DNA of 64,000 bases from the human T2T-CHM13v2.0 reference genome, Homo sapiens: the NCBI RefSeq assembly GCF_009914755.1, contig NC_060938.1. The stretch is one strand, 5' to 3'. Shown here piece after piece: positions 5,085 through 35,149 of this stretch. The notes below the pieces were generated by a model. It made no database searches. It saw only the letters and a list, made by a program, of their open reading frames with translations, and had not been told where the DNA came from. Position 1 is the stretch's first letter, and every line of letters begins with the position of its first letter. A program made the position numbers and the translations under genes.

Positions 5085-5901
5085 TCAGAAGGGGCTTCCT
5101 ATTAGGGGAAGAGGGTAACGCTCGCCCCTTTTGAGGGCAGCCAGAAAAAAGGAAAGATTTTTCTGAATACACATGGCTGAGAAATGGAGCTGGGGGTGAA
5201 ATTCTCCACGTTGTAGAATGACATTTGGCCTTCTTCTAAAGTCCTGAGTCTGTCTTTTAAGAAGATGTTGGCCGGGCGCGGTGGCTCACGCCTGTAATCC
5301 CAGCACTTTGGGAGGCCGAGGCGGGCAGATCATGAGGTCAGGAGATCAAGACCATCTTGGCTAACACGGTGAAACTCCATTTCTACTTAAAATACAAAAA
5401 ATTAGCCAGGCGTGGTGGCGGGTGCCTGTAGTCCCAGCTACTCGGGAGGCTGAGGCAAGAGAATGGCATGAACCTGGGAGGCGGAGCTTGCACTGAGCCG
5501 AGATTGTGCCACTGCACTCCAGCCTGGGTGACGGGGCGAGACTCTGTCTCAAAAAAAAAAAAAAAAAAAAGATGTCAGTGCCTGGGTAGGTGAGAGCCTG
5601 GTATTGACTTTGGCAGAGAGCCCAATAACTGAGGTGCCTTCCTTGGGTTTTAGTTTAAACCACTCTTTTCTACTCACGCATTCTTTGATCATGCTGAGCC
5701 TCCATCAGCCACCAAAAGCCACCTGCACGTCTCAGTCGTGTCTGCCTGATGAGAATCCCACAGTCCCCAGCACACTGAAGTAGGAGAACCTCTGTGGGTT
5801 GGAAGGCACAGACATCTTCATGCCTGTGTTCATTACACTCAGATTACATTCTGCTTCTTGGAGGTAAGCACTGGTAGTTTCTGGGTCCAGGACCACATGG
5901 T
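5085..5901 (-). pseudogene. Unit B terminal exon: butyrophilin/TRIM-type B30.2 (PRY-SPRY) domain, disabled and interrupted by an AluY
   Basis: Acceptor ctctctcttctctccccag then phase-1 (D)[92 protein letters not shown], frameshift, then [15 protein letters not shown][Alu 5270-5570][87 protein letters not shown] and PFF motifs are all in order. Stops at 5732-5734 and 5705-5707; the VGIFLD segment is deleted. Confidence 0.92.
5270..5570 (+). mobile_element. AluY inside the B30.2 pseudo-exon
   Basis: GAGATCAAGACCATCTTGGCTAACACGG, GGCGGAGCTTGCA; TSD about AAGATGT. Confidence 0.95.
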
Positions 5902-6689
5902 CTGGGGAGAGAAGAGAGAGAGCATTCAAGGGCAGCTAAGGGCAGGGATGAGATCAGCTTAATAAAGTGGCTTTGAGTCAGTGGAAGGTTGTGGCTGGAT
6001 GGATGCCCCTCTCCAAATCTCCCAGGGAGTCAGGCCTTCGTCCAGGTCGGGGCAGTCCACTCGTTGTCAGAGGACTGCTTCTCTGTGAAGGCTTGACTTT
6101 TTTTCTCTCAAGACAGGAAAAACCAACCCACGTGTGGCTCAGCTGCCTAGTAATCCTAGAACCACCCCCTGGACCTGGCAGCCTCAGGGTTGGGCCTGGG
6201 GTGGGGCAAGCCAGGTGTTTAGGTTATAACATTTAAGGCAGTGCTCTCTCTTGGGGTCGCACAATTGCCCCCTTCTCAGAGGTCTGGCCCTCTGCGGGAG
6301 CAGGGCCTCTTCCCCAGTGCTAGGCTGAGAGTAGTCAGGAGTCCACCTTCTTTAGACTCAAGCTTTACTGCCATCCTGAGGGTGCCAGCCAACCTCAGGA
6401 CAGCTGAGCCAGTCTCATCACTGGCTTCTCCCCCTCCCTCTCCATCACAAATGTCAATAACCTCACCGAATGCTTTCCTGTGTTTTGTGAAACTTCAGGA
6501 CTATGAGGAGTATGAGAAGGAGCCTCACCTGGCACCCTCTCTGCATATTCAGGGCAGTAGTTTGCTATCGAACCTGCCTCCAAATCTTCAGGGTGTGCCA
6601 GACATTTTATCCTAACTCCCTACCATAAGTTACCCGGGCTGGCGCTCATTTAGACAGCCTCGCTGGGCTTGTTACTCTGAACAGTTTAC

Positions 6690-6722
6690 CTCCCATTTCC
6701 TCCAGGACACTCAGCAGGTTCT
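6690..6722 (-). pseudogene. Unit B 33-nt phase 1-1 micro-exon (ENLLSVLEEMG-like)
   Basis: tttcctttttctctccctag|AGAACCTGCTGAGTGTCCTGGAGGAAATGGGAG|gtaaac; the phase matches the B30.2 exon, and short heptad exons precede B30.2 in BTN/TRIM genes. Confidence 0.55.
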
Positions 6723-7995
6723 CTAGGGAGAGAAAAAGGAAAATGCTTTGAGCTCCCAACCAACAGGTGCTTTCCACAAGCATCTCCCACTAGAGCTAAA
6801 AGCAAAAGCCAGGGCTGCTTCCCAGCTATAGGTAGAAGCCTGGCCTCCCTCCCCCTGTTGCTAGATCAACTGCCACAACCCCAAAGGAAAACAGGAATTT
6901 TCATTACCTTTTATCTGGTGTATGATTTGACTCAGTGTTTTACTCCTTGGAGAAAGTATGGATTCTCTTGCCTTGTTCAGTTAACTTGGAGACTAATGGT
7001 TTAACTTTCATGGTTTCACCCCTAAGAATAAACAGCAGGTTTTTGCAAATCAGGGATGAGTGGTTTACTTCTTAGGCCTAAGAGGGAGAAAGACAAACAA
7101 ACTGACCACCCTACTATCGGGAAGTGGCATCTGGAAGAAAGGGATGCAACCTAGAAATAAGGCCTTCCCACATCTGCAGGGCCTAGGACAAGAGAACGAA
7201 GGAAGGCCCACATACCATTTGGCCACATCTTTGAAAGTTATACACCAAACCAGCAAGCTGCTTAATGAAGTTATATCCTCCCACCTTGATGCATATATCT
7301 TCATAACAACCTAGAAAGTTAGTTACAAATTTAGAGTTATTGGACTCCTCAGGGTTCTGCACAGGGACACAGCAGACCAGGGAGTACCTTCCCAGCTCCC
7401 CAGCCCACTCCCTTCTCTTTACACCCTGGTCTCATCTGCATCATGAAGGACTTTGTGTGCATGTGGGTAGACACCTCAGCCCACATGACCATGCTTCATC
7501 CGTATGTTGCACCTCCTCCCCCACAGTTGCCACTTGGCTACCCCTTGGGTTTTAGGAGCATCTACTCATGCAGATGTCTGTCCTCCTAAGGACAGACCCA
7601 AAAGACAGACACAGAGAAGAGGACATCACAGGCCCTGGAAGTGGGCTCAGAGCTGCTTGTACAAGAAATTCTGGGAGTGTTATGTTAGAAGAGTGGCTTG
7701 GACGTGCAGTAGGCACATCACTCTGAGGGAGGATGGCTGCCAGTGGAGAGCCAGAGAGGGCACTTTTAATGCATAGGGCCTAGGAAAAGGGTACCTCTTG
7801 CCCAGGTAAAAGGGCAGTACTGCCAGGAATAAACATTTCCCTTTCCGAGACTTTCATCATCTGAGGAGACACGGTTTTCTCCAAGTCCTTACCCTCACAT
7901 AGGCTCTGGACCACCAGAAAGAAGCCAATAGGGAGGCAGTGGGCTAGAGTTTAATGCCACATGGACACATGTCTACAAAATGTCCAGTGAACCGT

Positions 7996-8458
7996 CTTTT
8001 TTTCTTTTTTTTTGAGATGGAGTGTTGTTCTGTCACCCAGGCTGGAATGTAATGGCAGGATCTCGGCTCACTGCAACTTCTGCTTTCCAGGTTCAAGTGA
8101 TTCTCCTGCCTCAGCCTCCCGAGTAGCTAGGATTACAGGCACGCGCCACCACACCTGGCTAATTTTTTGTATTTTACACTTTTTTTTGGTCTTTTTTTTT
8201 TTCTTTCTTTCTGTGGAGAACGAGGTCTTGCTATATTGCCCAGGCAGGTCTTGAACTCCTGGGCTCAAGCTATCCTCCTGCCTCTGCCTCCCTGAGAGCT
8301 GGGATTACAGGTGTGAGCCACTGCGCCCGGCCAATTTTTTTGTATTTTTAAGAGAGACAGGATTTCCCCATGTTGGTCAGGCTGGTCTCGAACTCCTGAC
8401 CTCATGATCCGCCTGCCTCAGCCTCCCAAAGTGCTGGGATTACAGGCATGAGCCTGGC
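7996..8458 (-). mobile_element. AluS hosting the BC200 copy
   Basis: Right monomer 7996-8175, left monomer 8333-8458. Confidence 0.9.
8174..8332 (-). pseudogene. BC200 (BCYRN1) RNA retrocopy inserted in an Alu linker
   Basis: Reverse complement has BC200-diagnostic CCCAGCTCTCAGGGAGG, GGATAGCTTGAGCCC, GACCTGCCTGGGCAATATAGC, GTTCTCCA, an A-rich tract containing AGAC and ending AAGTGTAA; flanked by duplicated AATTTTTT(T)GTATTTT (8161-8175, 8333-8348). Confidence 0.85.
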
Positions 8459-33520: not shown

Positions 33521-34029
33521 TGCCTCTAGTTTTATCTGGAGGGCCTTGGAATGATTTCTGGGCTGAGTAGAAAGCACACCCTCAGGAGATTGGACCTCCT
33601 GGGCCCCTAGCAGCTGGGTTTTGCTCAGCCTGAGTCCTGTCTCTAGTTGGAGACAATTGGGAACTGCTCCCTTAGGCCCTGCATGGCCCTACAAATTCCT
33701 CCTCCTTTTCTGGGGCTAAAGCAGGGCCTTCTTCCTTGTGAGTTACACAAAGTGAGAGACACATGGTCCAAGTTGGCCAGCGTCTTCATATCAGAAGATC
33801 TTGGAGTTCCTCCAGGAGCCCGGAGGTGTCTCCTTCTTGCATGTGAGGGGGGGCTTCTAGATGAGGCAGGTTTGTGAACCAAATCCATTAAGGAAGGGAA
33901 CTGGGACATGAAGACGAGGAGGTGGTGTCAGAACGAGATTCTCTTTCAGGGATGTGTCATGATGTCCTAGACAGTCCCTCTTTCTTCAGTTGGTTCGATA
34001 GGAGAAGGACTGGAAGAAGGGAGAGAAGG

Positions 34030-34192
34030 AAAGGTGAAGTAGACCTTTGACCAGAGCCACCTGACGATGTGTAGGGGAAGACCCAGCCAGCATTCCCCAT
34101 TTCCTGTTTGGGGTTGATCTTTCTGGGGTGAAGCTGATCTGTCCCTGCCCGTAGATGTGCACCAACTTGGAGAATTCCAGAATCCAGTTGAT
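34030..34192 (-). pseudogene. Unit A IgV C-terminal half
   Basis: [50 protein letters not shown]...FS..VH.Y..GQD and GNA.L......D.G spacing of BTN/B7 V-set domains. The N-terminal part may lie beyond the MER63/Alu at 34756-34869. Confidence 0.5.
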
Positions 34193-34235
34193 TGGGAAGG
34201 AAGATGAGAAGGTATATTTTTTCTAGAGTTAAAAG

Positions 34236-34755
34236 AAGTGGTGTGAGGCCGGGTGTGGTGGCTCATGCCTGTAATCCCACCACTTTGGGAGGCCAAGGCG
34301 GGTGGATCACCTGAGGTCAGGAGTTCGAGACCAGCCTGGCAATATAGTGAAACCCCATCTCTATTAAAAATACAAAAATTAGCTGGGTGTGGTGGTGGGC
34401 ACCTGTAATCTCAGCTACTTGGGAGGCTGAGGCAGGAGAATTGCTTGAACCCGGGAGGTGGAGGTTTCAGCAAGCCAAGACCGCGCCACTGCACTCCAGC
34501 CTGAGCAGCAAGAGCAAAACTCCATCTAAAAAAAAAAAAAAAAAAAAAAAAAGGAAATGGTGTGTTAGAGCCAGCTCCTACAGCTTGTGAGAGGCCGATT
34601 GTTAAATTTTCAAAAATGTTGTGAATCATTATGTTGATAGCTTGAAATTGGTCATAATGGGAGTATTTACACCATGACAATTGGGAAACACTACCAATCA
34701 GGGCTTCTCCAGGCCAGAAAGCTGGTTGCTAGTCACTTACCTGCATATGCCTGGG
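34236..34755 (+). mobile_element. MER63 hAT element interrupted by AluS (34247-34551)
   Basis: GTGGTGTG..GAGCCAGCTC..CCGATTGTTAAATTTTCA..GGGAGTATTTACACCA; Alu TSD AA(A/G)GAA(G/A)TGGTGTG. Confidence 0.75.
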
Positions 34756-35149
34756 CAAAGAGTACCATTTACCTCACTGTTTGGGGGTTCCTTGTGGCCT
34801 TTTGAGGGGGATAATGACAACTCTGTCTGGCTTTGGCCTTCTCTCCGTGATGTCCTGATGGTAATCATCTAGGAAGTACTGAATAAATATTTTTACTTTG
34901 GAATATATTATGAGATGAAATACAGGTCACCCTTGTCTGTAGGTTTCTCTACTTTCCTTCTCCTATATCTAAATCACACAGGACAGGCTTATCTAGGATA
35001 ATATCTCCTGTATACTCCATTCCTAGTCTCTCTAGACCGTATAGCAGCTAGTACAATGCCCAGGACAAAGTAGGTGCTCCAGAAATTGTTCAAGGAGGCT
35101 TAGAGAATCAATATCACCTGTTAAAATTTTATAGTTTTCCTGACTGTTG

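What the first reader, a model, noticed from the sequence alone, without database searches (positions are those of the whole stretch)
5085..34870. Fossil tandem pair of butyrophilin-TRIM hybrid genes (IgV-IgC-TM-RING-B-box-coiled coil-B30.2)
Seen: minus-strand exon remnants fall in the same order twice. Unit A: IgV 34.2-34.0k, IgC 30.4-29.3k, TM 27.98-27.86k, RING/B-box 27.67-27.35k, CC 24.3k, B30.2 22.8-22.3k. Unit B: SP? 16.7k, IgV 16.6-16.2k, IgC 15.2k, TM 15.0k, RING? 14.7k, CC 13.07-12.84k, 24/27/33-nt exons, B30.2 5.9-5.1k. Established: butyrophilins are IgV-IgC-TM-short heptad exons-B30.2, and C-IV TRIMs are RING-B-box-CC-B30.2 with no ectodomain; I know of no characterised human protein combining both. 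Inference: the ancestor encoded a cell-surface Ig receptor with a whole TRIM E3 ligase as its cytoplasmic tail, was duplicated in tandem, and was then lost in this lineage. It would bear on how BTN and TRIM came to share B30.2.
Basis: partly seen in the sequence, partly recalled or inferred. Interest (0 to 1): 0.95.

Follow-up and report, generated by a model that had tools for sequence, protein, structure and literature searches.

The report
Dead TRIM ubiquitin-ligase gene, chromosome 14
The window holds the decayed, unannotated remains of one ordinary TRIM-type ubiquitin-ligase gene whose closest living relatives are in marsupials and reptiles; it is not a tandem pair of butyrophilin-TRIM hybrid genes.

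Summary
- PRY/SPRY (B30.2) exon, 5901-5102, split by an Alu: tblastn E 9e-28 and 1e-9 to a wallaby protein; Pfam PRY above its gathering score.
- Coiled-coil exon, 13066-12840, flanked by AG and GT: E 6e-8.
- RING remnant, 27684-27544: E 7e-4; 0 of 21 decoys reach its score.

A probable 114-nt exon lies at 7021-6908. These pieces are collinear and match one standard class C-IV TRIM gene (RING, coiled coil, PRY/SPRY).

In a tree the B30.2 remnant groups with four marsupial "TRIM10-like" proteins (support 99/98; 54-58% identity against at most 43.5% to all others) and sits on a long branch. Stops, a frameshift, a 21-nt RING deletion and the Alu show the gene is dead.

Nothing supports the Ig, transmembrane or signal-peptide exons, the second RING, coiled coil or B30.2, or any duplication. 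Pfam, ten butyrophilin ectodomains, two custom HMMs run on both strands, and an Alu-masked self-comparison all gave only noise there.

Best reading: an unprocessed pseudogene with no closer human paralogue found, lost on the human lineage after the marsupial split. This is a modest, ordinary finding. The hybrid idea is left at about 2%.

The parts
27544..27684 (-). RING-finger remnant, part of the first coding exon of the dead TRIM gene. It reads 'CGHGFC-------WEGASGSLFCPHCQ' against the family's 'CGHNFCxACITQCWEGxxxxxSCPQCR'. A 7-codon in-frame deletion removes two zinc-ligand cysteines, the first Cys pair is eroded, a TGA follows at once, and no start codon survives.
   Evidence: tblastn with 16 TRIM relatives: best E 7e-4 (tuatara P0170), six more at 0.006-0.011. 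Restricted HMM search i-E 9e-4. 33.5 bits against a maximum of 29.6 in 21 decoys and 23.9 elsewhere in the window. Weak Pfam hits: zf-RING_5 at 0.66, TerY_C at 0.004. DNA.
27442..27477 (-). Possible start of the B-box ('KAWQKHLEASAL' against 'RACEKHQEALKL'), in frame just after the RING. Not above noise.
   Evidence: 15 bits, against 15.8-21.6 bits in 30 random 460-nt pieces. It appears in the P0162 alignment.
12840..13066 (-). Coiled-coil exon of 227 nt, with AG at 13068-13067 and GT at 12839-12838. It holds two in-frame stops.
   Evidence: tblastn P0017 13061-12849, E 6.5e-8, 34% over 71 aa. Hit by 6 of 16 panel members. Family HMM positions 169-238, i-E 1e-5. Splice-site context read.
6908..7021 (-). 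Probable 114-nt (38-codon) linker exon between the coiled coil and B30.2. It is flanked by 'ttattcttAG' and 'AAG|GTAATG' and holds one in-frame stop. 'KVKPLVSKLTEQGKRIHTFSKE' resembles the bilby 'NTKPLMPTYKFLDLDKRIKNFSRK'.
   Evidence: Second-ranked location bin for the linker segment (17 of 27 queries, 20 bits) and the only top bin that is collinear on the minus strand. The score alone is not above noise, since 20.8-24.3 bits occur elsewhere. DNA.
5581..5901 (-). 5' part of the single PRY/SPRY (B30.2) exon. The acceptor AG is at 5903-5902, after a polypyrimidine tract. There are TGA stops at 5734-5732 and 5707-5705 and one frameshift near 5630.
   Evidence: Pfam PRY E 6e-07 and 5e-08. PDB phmmer 8.9e-15. 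tblastn P0017 E 9e-28, 51% over 112. The frameshifted continuation 5624-5571 matches '[20 protein letters not shown]'. DNA.
5268..5580 (+). Alu element inserted into the SPRY part of the exon. Its sense strand is the plus strand and its poly-A tail abuts 5580. It has a short target-site duplication (ACATCTT). With the Alu and one duplicate removed, the two exon halves read in one frame.
   Evidence: Sequence read. It belongs to the Alu families (D6, D7, D9) and served as the masking query.
5102..5267 (-). 3' part of the PRY/SPRY exon, ending in an in-frame TAA at 5104-5102, where the relatives also end. It carries the motif 'FPFFWLPSKG', shared letter for letter with the marsupial proteins.
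   Evidence: tblastn P0017 5236-5105, E 1e-9, 52% over 44. Family HMM positions 432-476, i-E 3e-5. Weak collinear PDB hits to the C-terminal ends of TRIM15 and RNF135 B30.2.

Best explanation
The window contains one unprocessed, long-dead gene of the class C-IV TRIM family (RING, B-box, coiled coil, PRY/SPRY). It lies on the minus strand from about 27.69k to 5.10k. By the hub's mapping that is T2T chr14:59,339,102-59,361,684.

Shown:
- Four collinear exon remnants survive. They are a RING, a 227-nt coiled-coil exon, a probable 114-nt linker exon, and a single large PRY/SPRY exon. Canonical splice-site dinucleotides remain at the last three.
- The reading frame is destroyed by stop codons, at least one frameshift, a 21-nt deletion of two RING zinc ligands, loss of the start codon, and an Alu in the SPRY domain.
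- The closest living sequences are marsupial proteins named 'TRIM10-like' by automatic annotation. Next come turtle, alligator, kiwi and tuatara 'RFP-like' TRIMs.

Inferred:
- The gene was present in the common ancestor of marsupials and placentals and worked as a dimeric E3 ubiquitin ligase. The RING recruits an E2, the coiled coil dimerises, and PRY/SPRY binds the target.
- It became a pseudogene with no closer human paralogue on the lineage to humans, probably early, given the long branch and the absence of any placental protein among the close hits.
- It does nothing now as a coding gene.
- The Ig, TM and second-unit 'exons' are chance open frames and Alu-derived text.
For: - Four exon remnants lie in the order and on the strand of a TRIM gene, and nowhere else. 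A 29-sequence family HMM run over 846 six-frame tiles of the whole window gave only RING 27627-27535, coiled coil 13079-12870 (1e-5), PRY/SPRY 5908-5612 (1e-23), 5627-5571 and 5236-5105 (3e-5) below i-E 1. Weaker hits from i-E 4 upward lay on both strands.
- tblastn with wallaby P0017 gave 9e-28, 1e-9 and 6.5e-8.
- RING: best E 7e-4 with a family-specific 'CGHxFC...WEG...CPxC' pattern; 0 of 21 decoys reach its score.
- Splice signals are read directly: AG before and GT after the coiled-coil exon, a polypyrimidine tract and AG before the B30.2 exon, and AG with AAG|GTAATG around the 114-nt exon. The gene is therefore not a retrocopy.
- The tree puts the human remnant with 4 marsupial proteins at 99/98 support. 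Identity is 80-85 of 147 (54-58%) against at most 43.5% to 23 others. The human branch is 0.71 against at most 0.084 for marsupial tips.
- No closer human paralogue: in a library of 1.84 billion representatives the best single-domain hit is the wallaby protein at 53%, and the others are at most 46%. Solved human TRIM and BTN B30.2 domains score 33-55 bits, against 101.9 bits for P0017.
- Disabling lesions were read.
Against: - The RING match is modest (E about 1e-3). The B-box is not detectable above noise. No remnant of the expected short coiled-coil exon between 27.4k and 13.07k was found.
- The score of the 114-nt exon alone is within noise.
- Assigning the RING to the same gene as the coiled coil and B30.2 rests on collinearity across a 14-kb gap.
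- Synteny with the marsupial and reptile genes could not be checked, because no eukaryote genome context is available here. Orthology rests on the tree alone.
- The four marsupial models lack RING and B-box (267-355 aa), so the ancestral N-terminus is inferred from sauropsid relatives.
- The tree held no named human TRIM or BTN sequences.
- Among solved structures, the best match to the PRY half is a butyrophilin B30.2, not a TRIM.
Confidence: 0.85

Rival explanations
1. Two separate TRIM relics. The RING at 27.6k belongs to one dead TRIM gene that has lost its coiled coil and B30.2. The coiled coil and B30.2 at 13-5k belong to a second gene that has lost its RING. This would be a much-eroded tandem pair of plain TRIMs with no Ig part.
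For: A 14-kb gap lies between the RING and the coiled-coil exon, and no intervening exon was found. C-IV TRIM genes often sit in tandem clusters, as concatenated gene models of relatives show. The marsupial relatives are annotated without a RING.
Against: Each domain is present exactly once and in gene order. There is no second coiled coil or B30.2, although the surviving B30.2 scores 1e-23, so a copy of similar age should be visible. There is no non-Alu similarity between the halves at the exons. About a quarter of the span is Alu (6965 of 29786 bases), which explains long introns.
Confidence: 0.07
2. One reading: an ancestral cell-surface IgV-IgC-TM receptor with a complete TRIM as its cytoplasmic tail, duplicated in tandem.
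For: Among solved structures a butyrophilin B30.2 is the best match to the PRY half. Pfam sensitivity on this decayed DNA is limited: the true SPRY and B-box are missed and the RING reaches only E 0.66. A decayed Ig exon with no close living relative could therefore escape detection. Butyrophilin and TRIM genes are neighbours in some species.
Against: - No Ig or TM signal in Pfam.
- Ten butyrophilin ectodomains gave a best E of 0.17. In the claimed intervals there were 9 minus-strand hits (best E 1.7) and 4 plus-strand hits (best E 0.98).
- The ectodomain HMM gave a best i-E of 2.8, on the wrong strand.
- The hydrophobic stretch at 15.0k is one of 46 in the window, and there is none at 27.9k.
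- The claimed unit B Ig exons at 16.7-15.0k lie downstream of the real RING exon, inside what is then an intron.
- None of the 120 listed near-length relatives combines Ig with RING or B-box; the only Ig-bearing ones seen, three butyrophilin-1A1-like proteins, have no RING.
- 0 of 13 and 0 of 32 long relatives have Ig-TM-RING order with a single B30.2.
- No tandem duplication.
Confidence: 0.02
3. A processed pseudogene (retrocopy), or a recent segmental duplicate, of an extant human TRIM or butyrophilin gene.
For: B30.2-only fragments can arise by retroposition. Solved human BTN3A1 and TRIM21 domains match at 1e-13 to 1e-10.
Against: The exons are separated by 5-14 kb and keep their splice-site dinucleotides. 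No human protein is closer than the marsupial ones: about 40% against 53-58%.
Confidence: 0.01

Closest known systems
Marsupial 'tripartite motif-containing protein 10-like' predicted proteins (Notamacropus eugenii P0017, Dromiciops gliroides P0159, Macrotis lagotis P0160, Phascolarctos cinereus P0161; names given by the source)
   Same: B30.2 is 54-58% identical (80-85 of 147). The C-terminal motif FPFFWLPSKG and the stop position are shared. The coiled-coil exon aligns at 30-34%. They form a clade with the remnant at 99/98 support.
   Different: The marsupial genes are intact predicted proteins and the human copy is destroyed. The marsupial models start in the coiled coil and show no RING or B-box, whereas the human locus keeps a RING remnant. 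Despite the name, they are not TRIM10: the solved human TRIM10 PRY/SPRY scores only 38 bits against the remnant.
Sauropsid 'zinc finger protein RFP-like' and 'TRIM7-like' C-IV TRIMs (turtles P0162, P0163, P0167; alligator P0166; kiwi P0165; tuatara P0170)
   Same: Full RING, B-box, coiled coil and PRY/SPRY architecture. The RING motif CGHNFC..C...CWEG.....CPQCR matches the human remnant. B30.2 identity is 38-44%.
   Different: They are more distant than the marsupial proteins, and their orthology and synteny are untested.
Butyrophilins (BTN3A1, BTN2A1 and BTN1A1-like: IgV, IgC, TM, B30.2)
   Same: They share the PRY/SPRY (B30.2) domain, encoded by one large last exon. They give the best solved-structure match to the PRY half (8.9e-15).
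   Different: No IgV, IgC or TM was detectable here. The remnant has a TRIM coiled-coil exon and a RING, which butyrophilins lack. In the tree 6 of 7 butyrophilin B30.2 domains fall in the other half of the tree. The seventh (P0049) sits unresolved in the remnant's half but outside the human-marsupial clade.
Unitary pseudogenes of mammals (genes lost in one lineage and intact in others)
   Same: Unprocessed exon-intron layout, multiple disabling lesions, intact relatives in other lineages, and no closer paralogue found in the same genome.
   Different: The loss has not been dated. Shared lesions in other placentals and synteny were not examined. The locus is not annotated in the RefSeq table supplied.

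Membership tests
Class C-IV TRIM gene (as a pseudogene) | N-terminal C3HC4 RING finger | tested here: met
   Degraded RING at 27684-27544. tblastn best E 7e-4, restricted HMM i-E 9e-4, 0 of 21 decoys reach its score. Two zinc ligands are deleted and the first Cys pair is eroded, so it is a remnant, not a functional RING.
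Class C-IV TRIM gene (as a pseudogene) | B-box 2 zinc finger after the RING | tested here: inconclusive
   Only a 12-residue match at 27477-27442, 15 bits, below the best scores of 30 random pieces (15.8-21.6). No Pfam zf-B_box hit.
Class C-IV TRIM gene (as a pseudogene) | Coiled-coil region encoded by separate internal exons | tested here: met
   Exon 13066-12840 with AG and GT flanks. E 6.5e-8 to P0017. HMM positions 169-238, i-E 1e-5. The short upstream coiled-coil exon was not found.
Class C-IV TRIM gene (as a pseudogene) | C-terminal PRY/SPRY (B30.2) in one large last exon | tested here: met
   Pfam PRY above its gathering score (29.4 and 32.8 bits against 27.5). Pfam SPRY was not reported, but the SPRY part aligns to relatives. 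There is an acceptor AG at 5903-5902 and an in-frame stop at 5104-5102.
Unitary (unprocessed) pseudogene | Disabling lesions in an exon-intron copy, intact relatives elsewhere, no closer paralogue in the same genome | tested here: met
   Lesions read. Intact marsupial and sauropsid proteins. The best non-marsupial hits are at most 46% identical and solved human B30.2 domains score at most 55 bits. The human proteome was not searched by name.
Unitary (unprocessed) pseudogene | Conserved synteny with the intact ortholog | not testable with these tools
   No eukaryote genome context is available; the genome collections held are prokaryotic, viral or metagenomic.
Butyrophilin | IgV and IgC ectodomain exons | tested here: not met
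   No V-set, C2-set or ig hit at E<=10. tblastn with 10 ectodomains gave a best E of 0.17 and equal hits on both strands. Ectodomain HMM best i-E 2.8, on the plus strand. Sensitivity for very decayed Ig exons is limited.
Butyrophilin | Single-pass transmembrane exon between Ig and B30.2 | tested here: not met
   No TM-like 19-mer at 27.98-27.86k. The one at 14962-14906 is one of 46 in the window's six frames and lies in the intron of the TRIM gene.
Tandem gene duplication | A second set of homologous exons, or DNA similarity between the units | tested here: not met
   The family HMM found each domain once. After Alu masking, the only similarity between 17-35k and 5-17k is 20722-21009 against 13948-14228, at 68%, outside the exons.

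The most novel reading that the evidence does not exclude
The verified TRIM remnant is the cytoplasmic part of a once larger gene. Its Ig and TM exons, upstream of the RING at about 28-34k, are too decayed to detect. The therian ancestor would then have had a membrane-anchored Ig receptor with a TRIM E3 ligase tail. My evidence does not strictly exclude this for the region upstream of the RING. The Pfam models missed even the true SPRY and B-box, and no close Ig-bearing relative exists to search with. Everything that could be tested speaks against it.
Probability: 0.02. Interest if true: 0.85.

Novelty: new member of a known kind. Interest (0 to 1): 0.25.

Why it matters
This adds one entry to the list of genes that placental mammals, or at least humans, have lost. 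It is a C-IV TRIM, a family tied to innate antiviral defence. Its nearest intact relatives survive in marsupials and sauropsids, and it lies outside the MHC-linked TRIM clusters.

The RefSeq table supplied with the finding does not annotate it. I found no mention of it in five literature searches or in passages of three papers. It could help date TRIM repertoire turnover. It is also a useful caution for this scan: real fossil exons were found by eye, and chance frames were then over-read into an exotic architecture. It does not bear on how butyrophilins and TRIMs came to share B30.2.

Tried and rejected
I made the translations one at a time and scanned their ids.
- Pfam on long read-through frames and on the claimed segments found only PRY plus weak Cys-rich hits. 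Pfam SPRY and zf-B_box were not reported even at the real exons, so Pfam negatives here are weak.
- The first PDB query on the 3' half of the exon was in the wrong frame and found nothing. It was repeated in the right frame.
- The word-indexed search with the 109-aa remnant gave a single newt butyrophilin. tblastn with it found only the B30.2.
- Search for the short coiled-coil exon and the B-box: no location above noise, and 24.3k is not among the top bins.
- A collinear candidate at 9064-8969 (HMM positions 240-271, i-E 6.1 and 0.97) overlaps sequence already covered by the 13k exon. I rejected it.
- No plus-strand Pfam read-through control was run.
- No structure prediction or complex prediction was run. 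None was needed.

Full report
**What was claimed.** Each was read as IgV, IgC, TM, RING/B-box, coiled coil and B30.2.

**First pass.** Stop-to-stop frames of 60 residues or more are equally common on both strands of 5085-34870 (172 in all). Base composition is unremarkable. The span is full of Alu elements in both orientations: 23 Alu-like intervals covering 6965 of 29786 bases.

I translated all three minus-strand frames of 5001-35000 with X at stops and scanned them against Pfam at E<=10.
- One credible family appeared: PRY (PF13765), E 6e-07, 29.4 bits against a gathering score of 27.5, at about 5896-5753.
- The only other hit was TerY_C at E 0.11.
- No V-set, C2-set, ig, B-box or SPRY hit was reported anywhere.

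**The B30.2 exon is real.** The DNA shows a polypyrimidine tract and an AG at 5903-5902, followed by an open PRY/SPRY-like text.
- An Alu at 5268-5580 interrupts it. The Alu's sense strand is the plus strand, and it has a short target-site duplication.
- The text resumes after the Alu and ends at an in-frame TAA at 5104-5102.
- phmmer of the 5' half against all PDB chains found 74 sequences at E<=1, and all 60 shown are B30.2 domains. The best is a butyrophilin 3 domain at 8.9e-15; BTN3A1 scores about 7e-14 and TRIM21 about 2e-10.
- The 3' half weakly matches the C-terminal ends of the TRIM15 and RNF135 B30.2 domains, at E 0.5-0.8 and in collinear positions. An earlier try in the wrong frame found nothing.

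**What it is related to.** A full HMMER search of 1.84 billion representative proteins gave 1084 hits at E<=0.001.
- The best single-domain hit was P0017, 350 aa, 53% identical, 101.9 bits. Other single-domain hits were at most 46% identical.
- A named database calls P0017 'tripartite motif-containing protein 10-like isoform X2' of the tammar wallaby.
- Close relatives exist in monito del monte, bilby and koala. Next come turtle, alligator, kiwi and tuatara 'RFP-like' or 'TRIM7-like' proteins, which carry RING, B-box, PRY and SPRY.
- P0017 itself is a TRIM coiled coil followed by PRY/SPRY.

**The other exons.** tblastn of P0017 against the window gave three significant hits.

| Window position (minus strand) | E-value | Identity |
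|---|---|---|
| 5902-5570 | 9e-28 | 51% over 112 aa |
| 5236-5105 | 1e-9 | 52% over 44 aa, including a shared FPFFWLPSKG |
| 13061-12849 | 6.5e-8 | 34% over 71 aa of coiled coil |

- A frameshifted piece at 5624-5571 also continues the SPRY.
Its DNA is a 227-nt block flanked by AG (13068-13067) and GT (12839-12838).
- A panel of 16 relatives also hit 27684-27442 with their RING fingers. The best E was 7e-4, and six more fell at 0.006-0.011.
- The RING alignment is family-specific: 'CGHGFC-------WEGASGSLFCPHCQ' against 'CGHNFCxACITQCWEGxxxxxSCPQCR'. A 7-codon deletion removes two zinc ligands.
- In a decoy test the real locus scored 33.5 bits. None of 21 reversed or Markov-resampled windows reached that (maximum 29.6), and the best elsewhere in the real window was 23.9.
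- The following 12 residues resemble the start of the B-box, but they are below the noise of 30 random pieces.
- A probable 114-nt exon at 7021-6908 resembles the marsupial linker. It has the same 38-codon length as the corresponding stretch of the wallaby protein, by my own division of that protein into exons, and is flanked by 'ttattcttAG' and 'AAG|GTAATG'. Its score alone is within noise.

**One gene, not two.**
- A family HMM built from 29 relatives was run with all filters off over 846 six-frame tiles of the whole window. Below i-E 1 it hit only the minus strand. Those hits are in gene order: RING (i-E 0.17), coiled coil (1e-5), PRY/SPRY (1e-23), the frameshifted piece, and the C-terminal piece (3e-5). 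Weaker hits from i-E 4 upward lay on both strands.
- Each domain occurs once.
- After Alu masking, 17-35k and 5-17k share one 298-nt match at 68% identity (20722-21009 against 13948-14228), away from any claimed exon.
It spans about 22.6 kb, with introns swollen by repeats.

**No Ig or TM.**
- Pfam on the claimed Ig, TM and signal-peptide segments, in three frames, found nothing relevant.
- The ectodomains of ten butyrophilins (fish, shark, newt and unnamed representatives) gave 152 tblastn hits at E<=10. The best was E 0.17, with 72 on the minus strand and 80 on the plus strand. In the padded claimed intervals there were 9 minus-strand hits (best E 1.7) against 4 plus-strand hits (best E 0.98).
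- An HMM of those ectodomains gave a best i-E of 2.8, on the plus strand.
- Hydrophobic 19-mers without charge (mean Kyte-Doolittle 1.8 or more) occur 46 times in the six frames of the window. None lies at 27.98-27.86k.
- The unit B 'Ig' pieces sit inside what is now seen to be an intron, downstream of the RING.
- Caveat: Pfam missed the true SPRY and B-box and gave the true RING only E 0.66. A very decayed Ig exon with no close living relative could escape these tests.

**Do hybrids exist among relatives?**
- None of the 120 listed near-length relatives combines Ig domains with RING or B-box. The only Ig-bearing ones I saw are three butyrophilin-1A1-like proteins without a RING.
- Of 13 long representatives, none combines Ig with RING.
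- Of 32 long relatives of P0017, two combine them. Their domain order is RING, B-box, SPRY, then V-set, C2-set, PRY (ruff), or three PRY domains in a row (sawfish). These are neighbouring genes concatenated by gene prediction, not Ig-TM-RING proteins.

**Phylogeny and decay.** In a maximum-likelihood tree of 28 B30.2 sequences, the human remnant groups with the four marsupial proteins at 99/98 support.
- Identity is 80-85 of 147 (54-58%), against at most 43.5% for the other 23.
- The human tip branch is 0.71 changes per site, against at most 0.084 for the marsupial tips.
- Lesions seen directly:
  - two TGA stops, a frameshift and an Alu in the last exon;
  - two stops in the coiled-coil exon;
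  - one stop in the 114-nt exon;
  - in the RING, a 21-nt deletion, eroded cysteines, a TGA and no start codon.
- From this I infer an old loss on the human lineage after the split from marsupials. The long branch and the lack of any placental protein among the close hits suggest a loss early in placental history. I could not date it.

**Literature.** Five full-text searches and term look-ups in three papers turned up no mention of a TRIM or B30.2 relic near MAX on chromosome 14, or of an Ig-TM-TRIM architecture.
- The three papers were PMC10445537 on duck and amniote TRIMs, PMC3228819 on young primate TRIMs, and PMC7144826.
- I saw only listings, abstract starts and the matched passages. No supplements were opened, and their gene lists might hold it.

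**Verdict.** The interpretation as a tandem pair of hybrids is not supported. What is there is an ordinary, unannotated, unprocessed TRIM pseudogene.

Noticed in passing
window 20722-21009 and 13948-14228: A 298-nt direct similarity at 68% identity remains after Alu masking. It is probably two copies of an older interspersed repeat and lies outside all exon remnants.
   Followed up: no
window 31338-31988: Two adjacent pairs of direct repeats about 330 nt apart at 77% identity (31338-31444/31663-31769 and 31462-31654/31796-31988). This looks like an old local tandem duplication of roughly 330 nt (families D15 and D16).
   Followed up: no
window 18036-18216: A roughly 90-nt unit is repeated twice at 80-84% identity (families D17 and D18). 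It lies inside a stretch the hub lists as masked.
   Followed up: no
proteins P0017, P0159, P0160, P0161: All four marsupial relatives are predicted as 267-355-residue proteins that begin in the coiled coil and lack RING and B-box, while the human relic keeps a RING trace. Either the marsupial models are incomplete or the marsupial gene now works without a RING.
   Followed up: partly
proteins P0288 (ruff) and P0284 (sawfish): These gene models run a TRIM straight into a butyrophilin, with 2-3 B30.2 domains. TRIM and butyrophilin genes are therefore immediate neighbours in those genomes, and automatic models fuse them.
   Followed up: partly
protein P0032; window about 5690-5550 (-): A public protein library holds a 48-residue 'protein' identical to part of the dead SPRY exon, running into the translated Alu poly-T. 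It is an ORF-calling artefact on human DNA.
   Followed up: no
window 4945-4940 (-): An AATAAA lies about 160 nt downstream of the relic's stop codon. It could be the old polyadenylation signal or chance.
   Followed up: no
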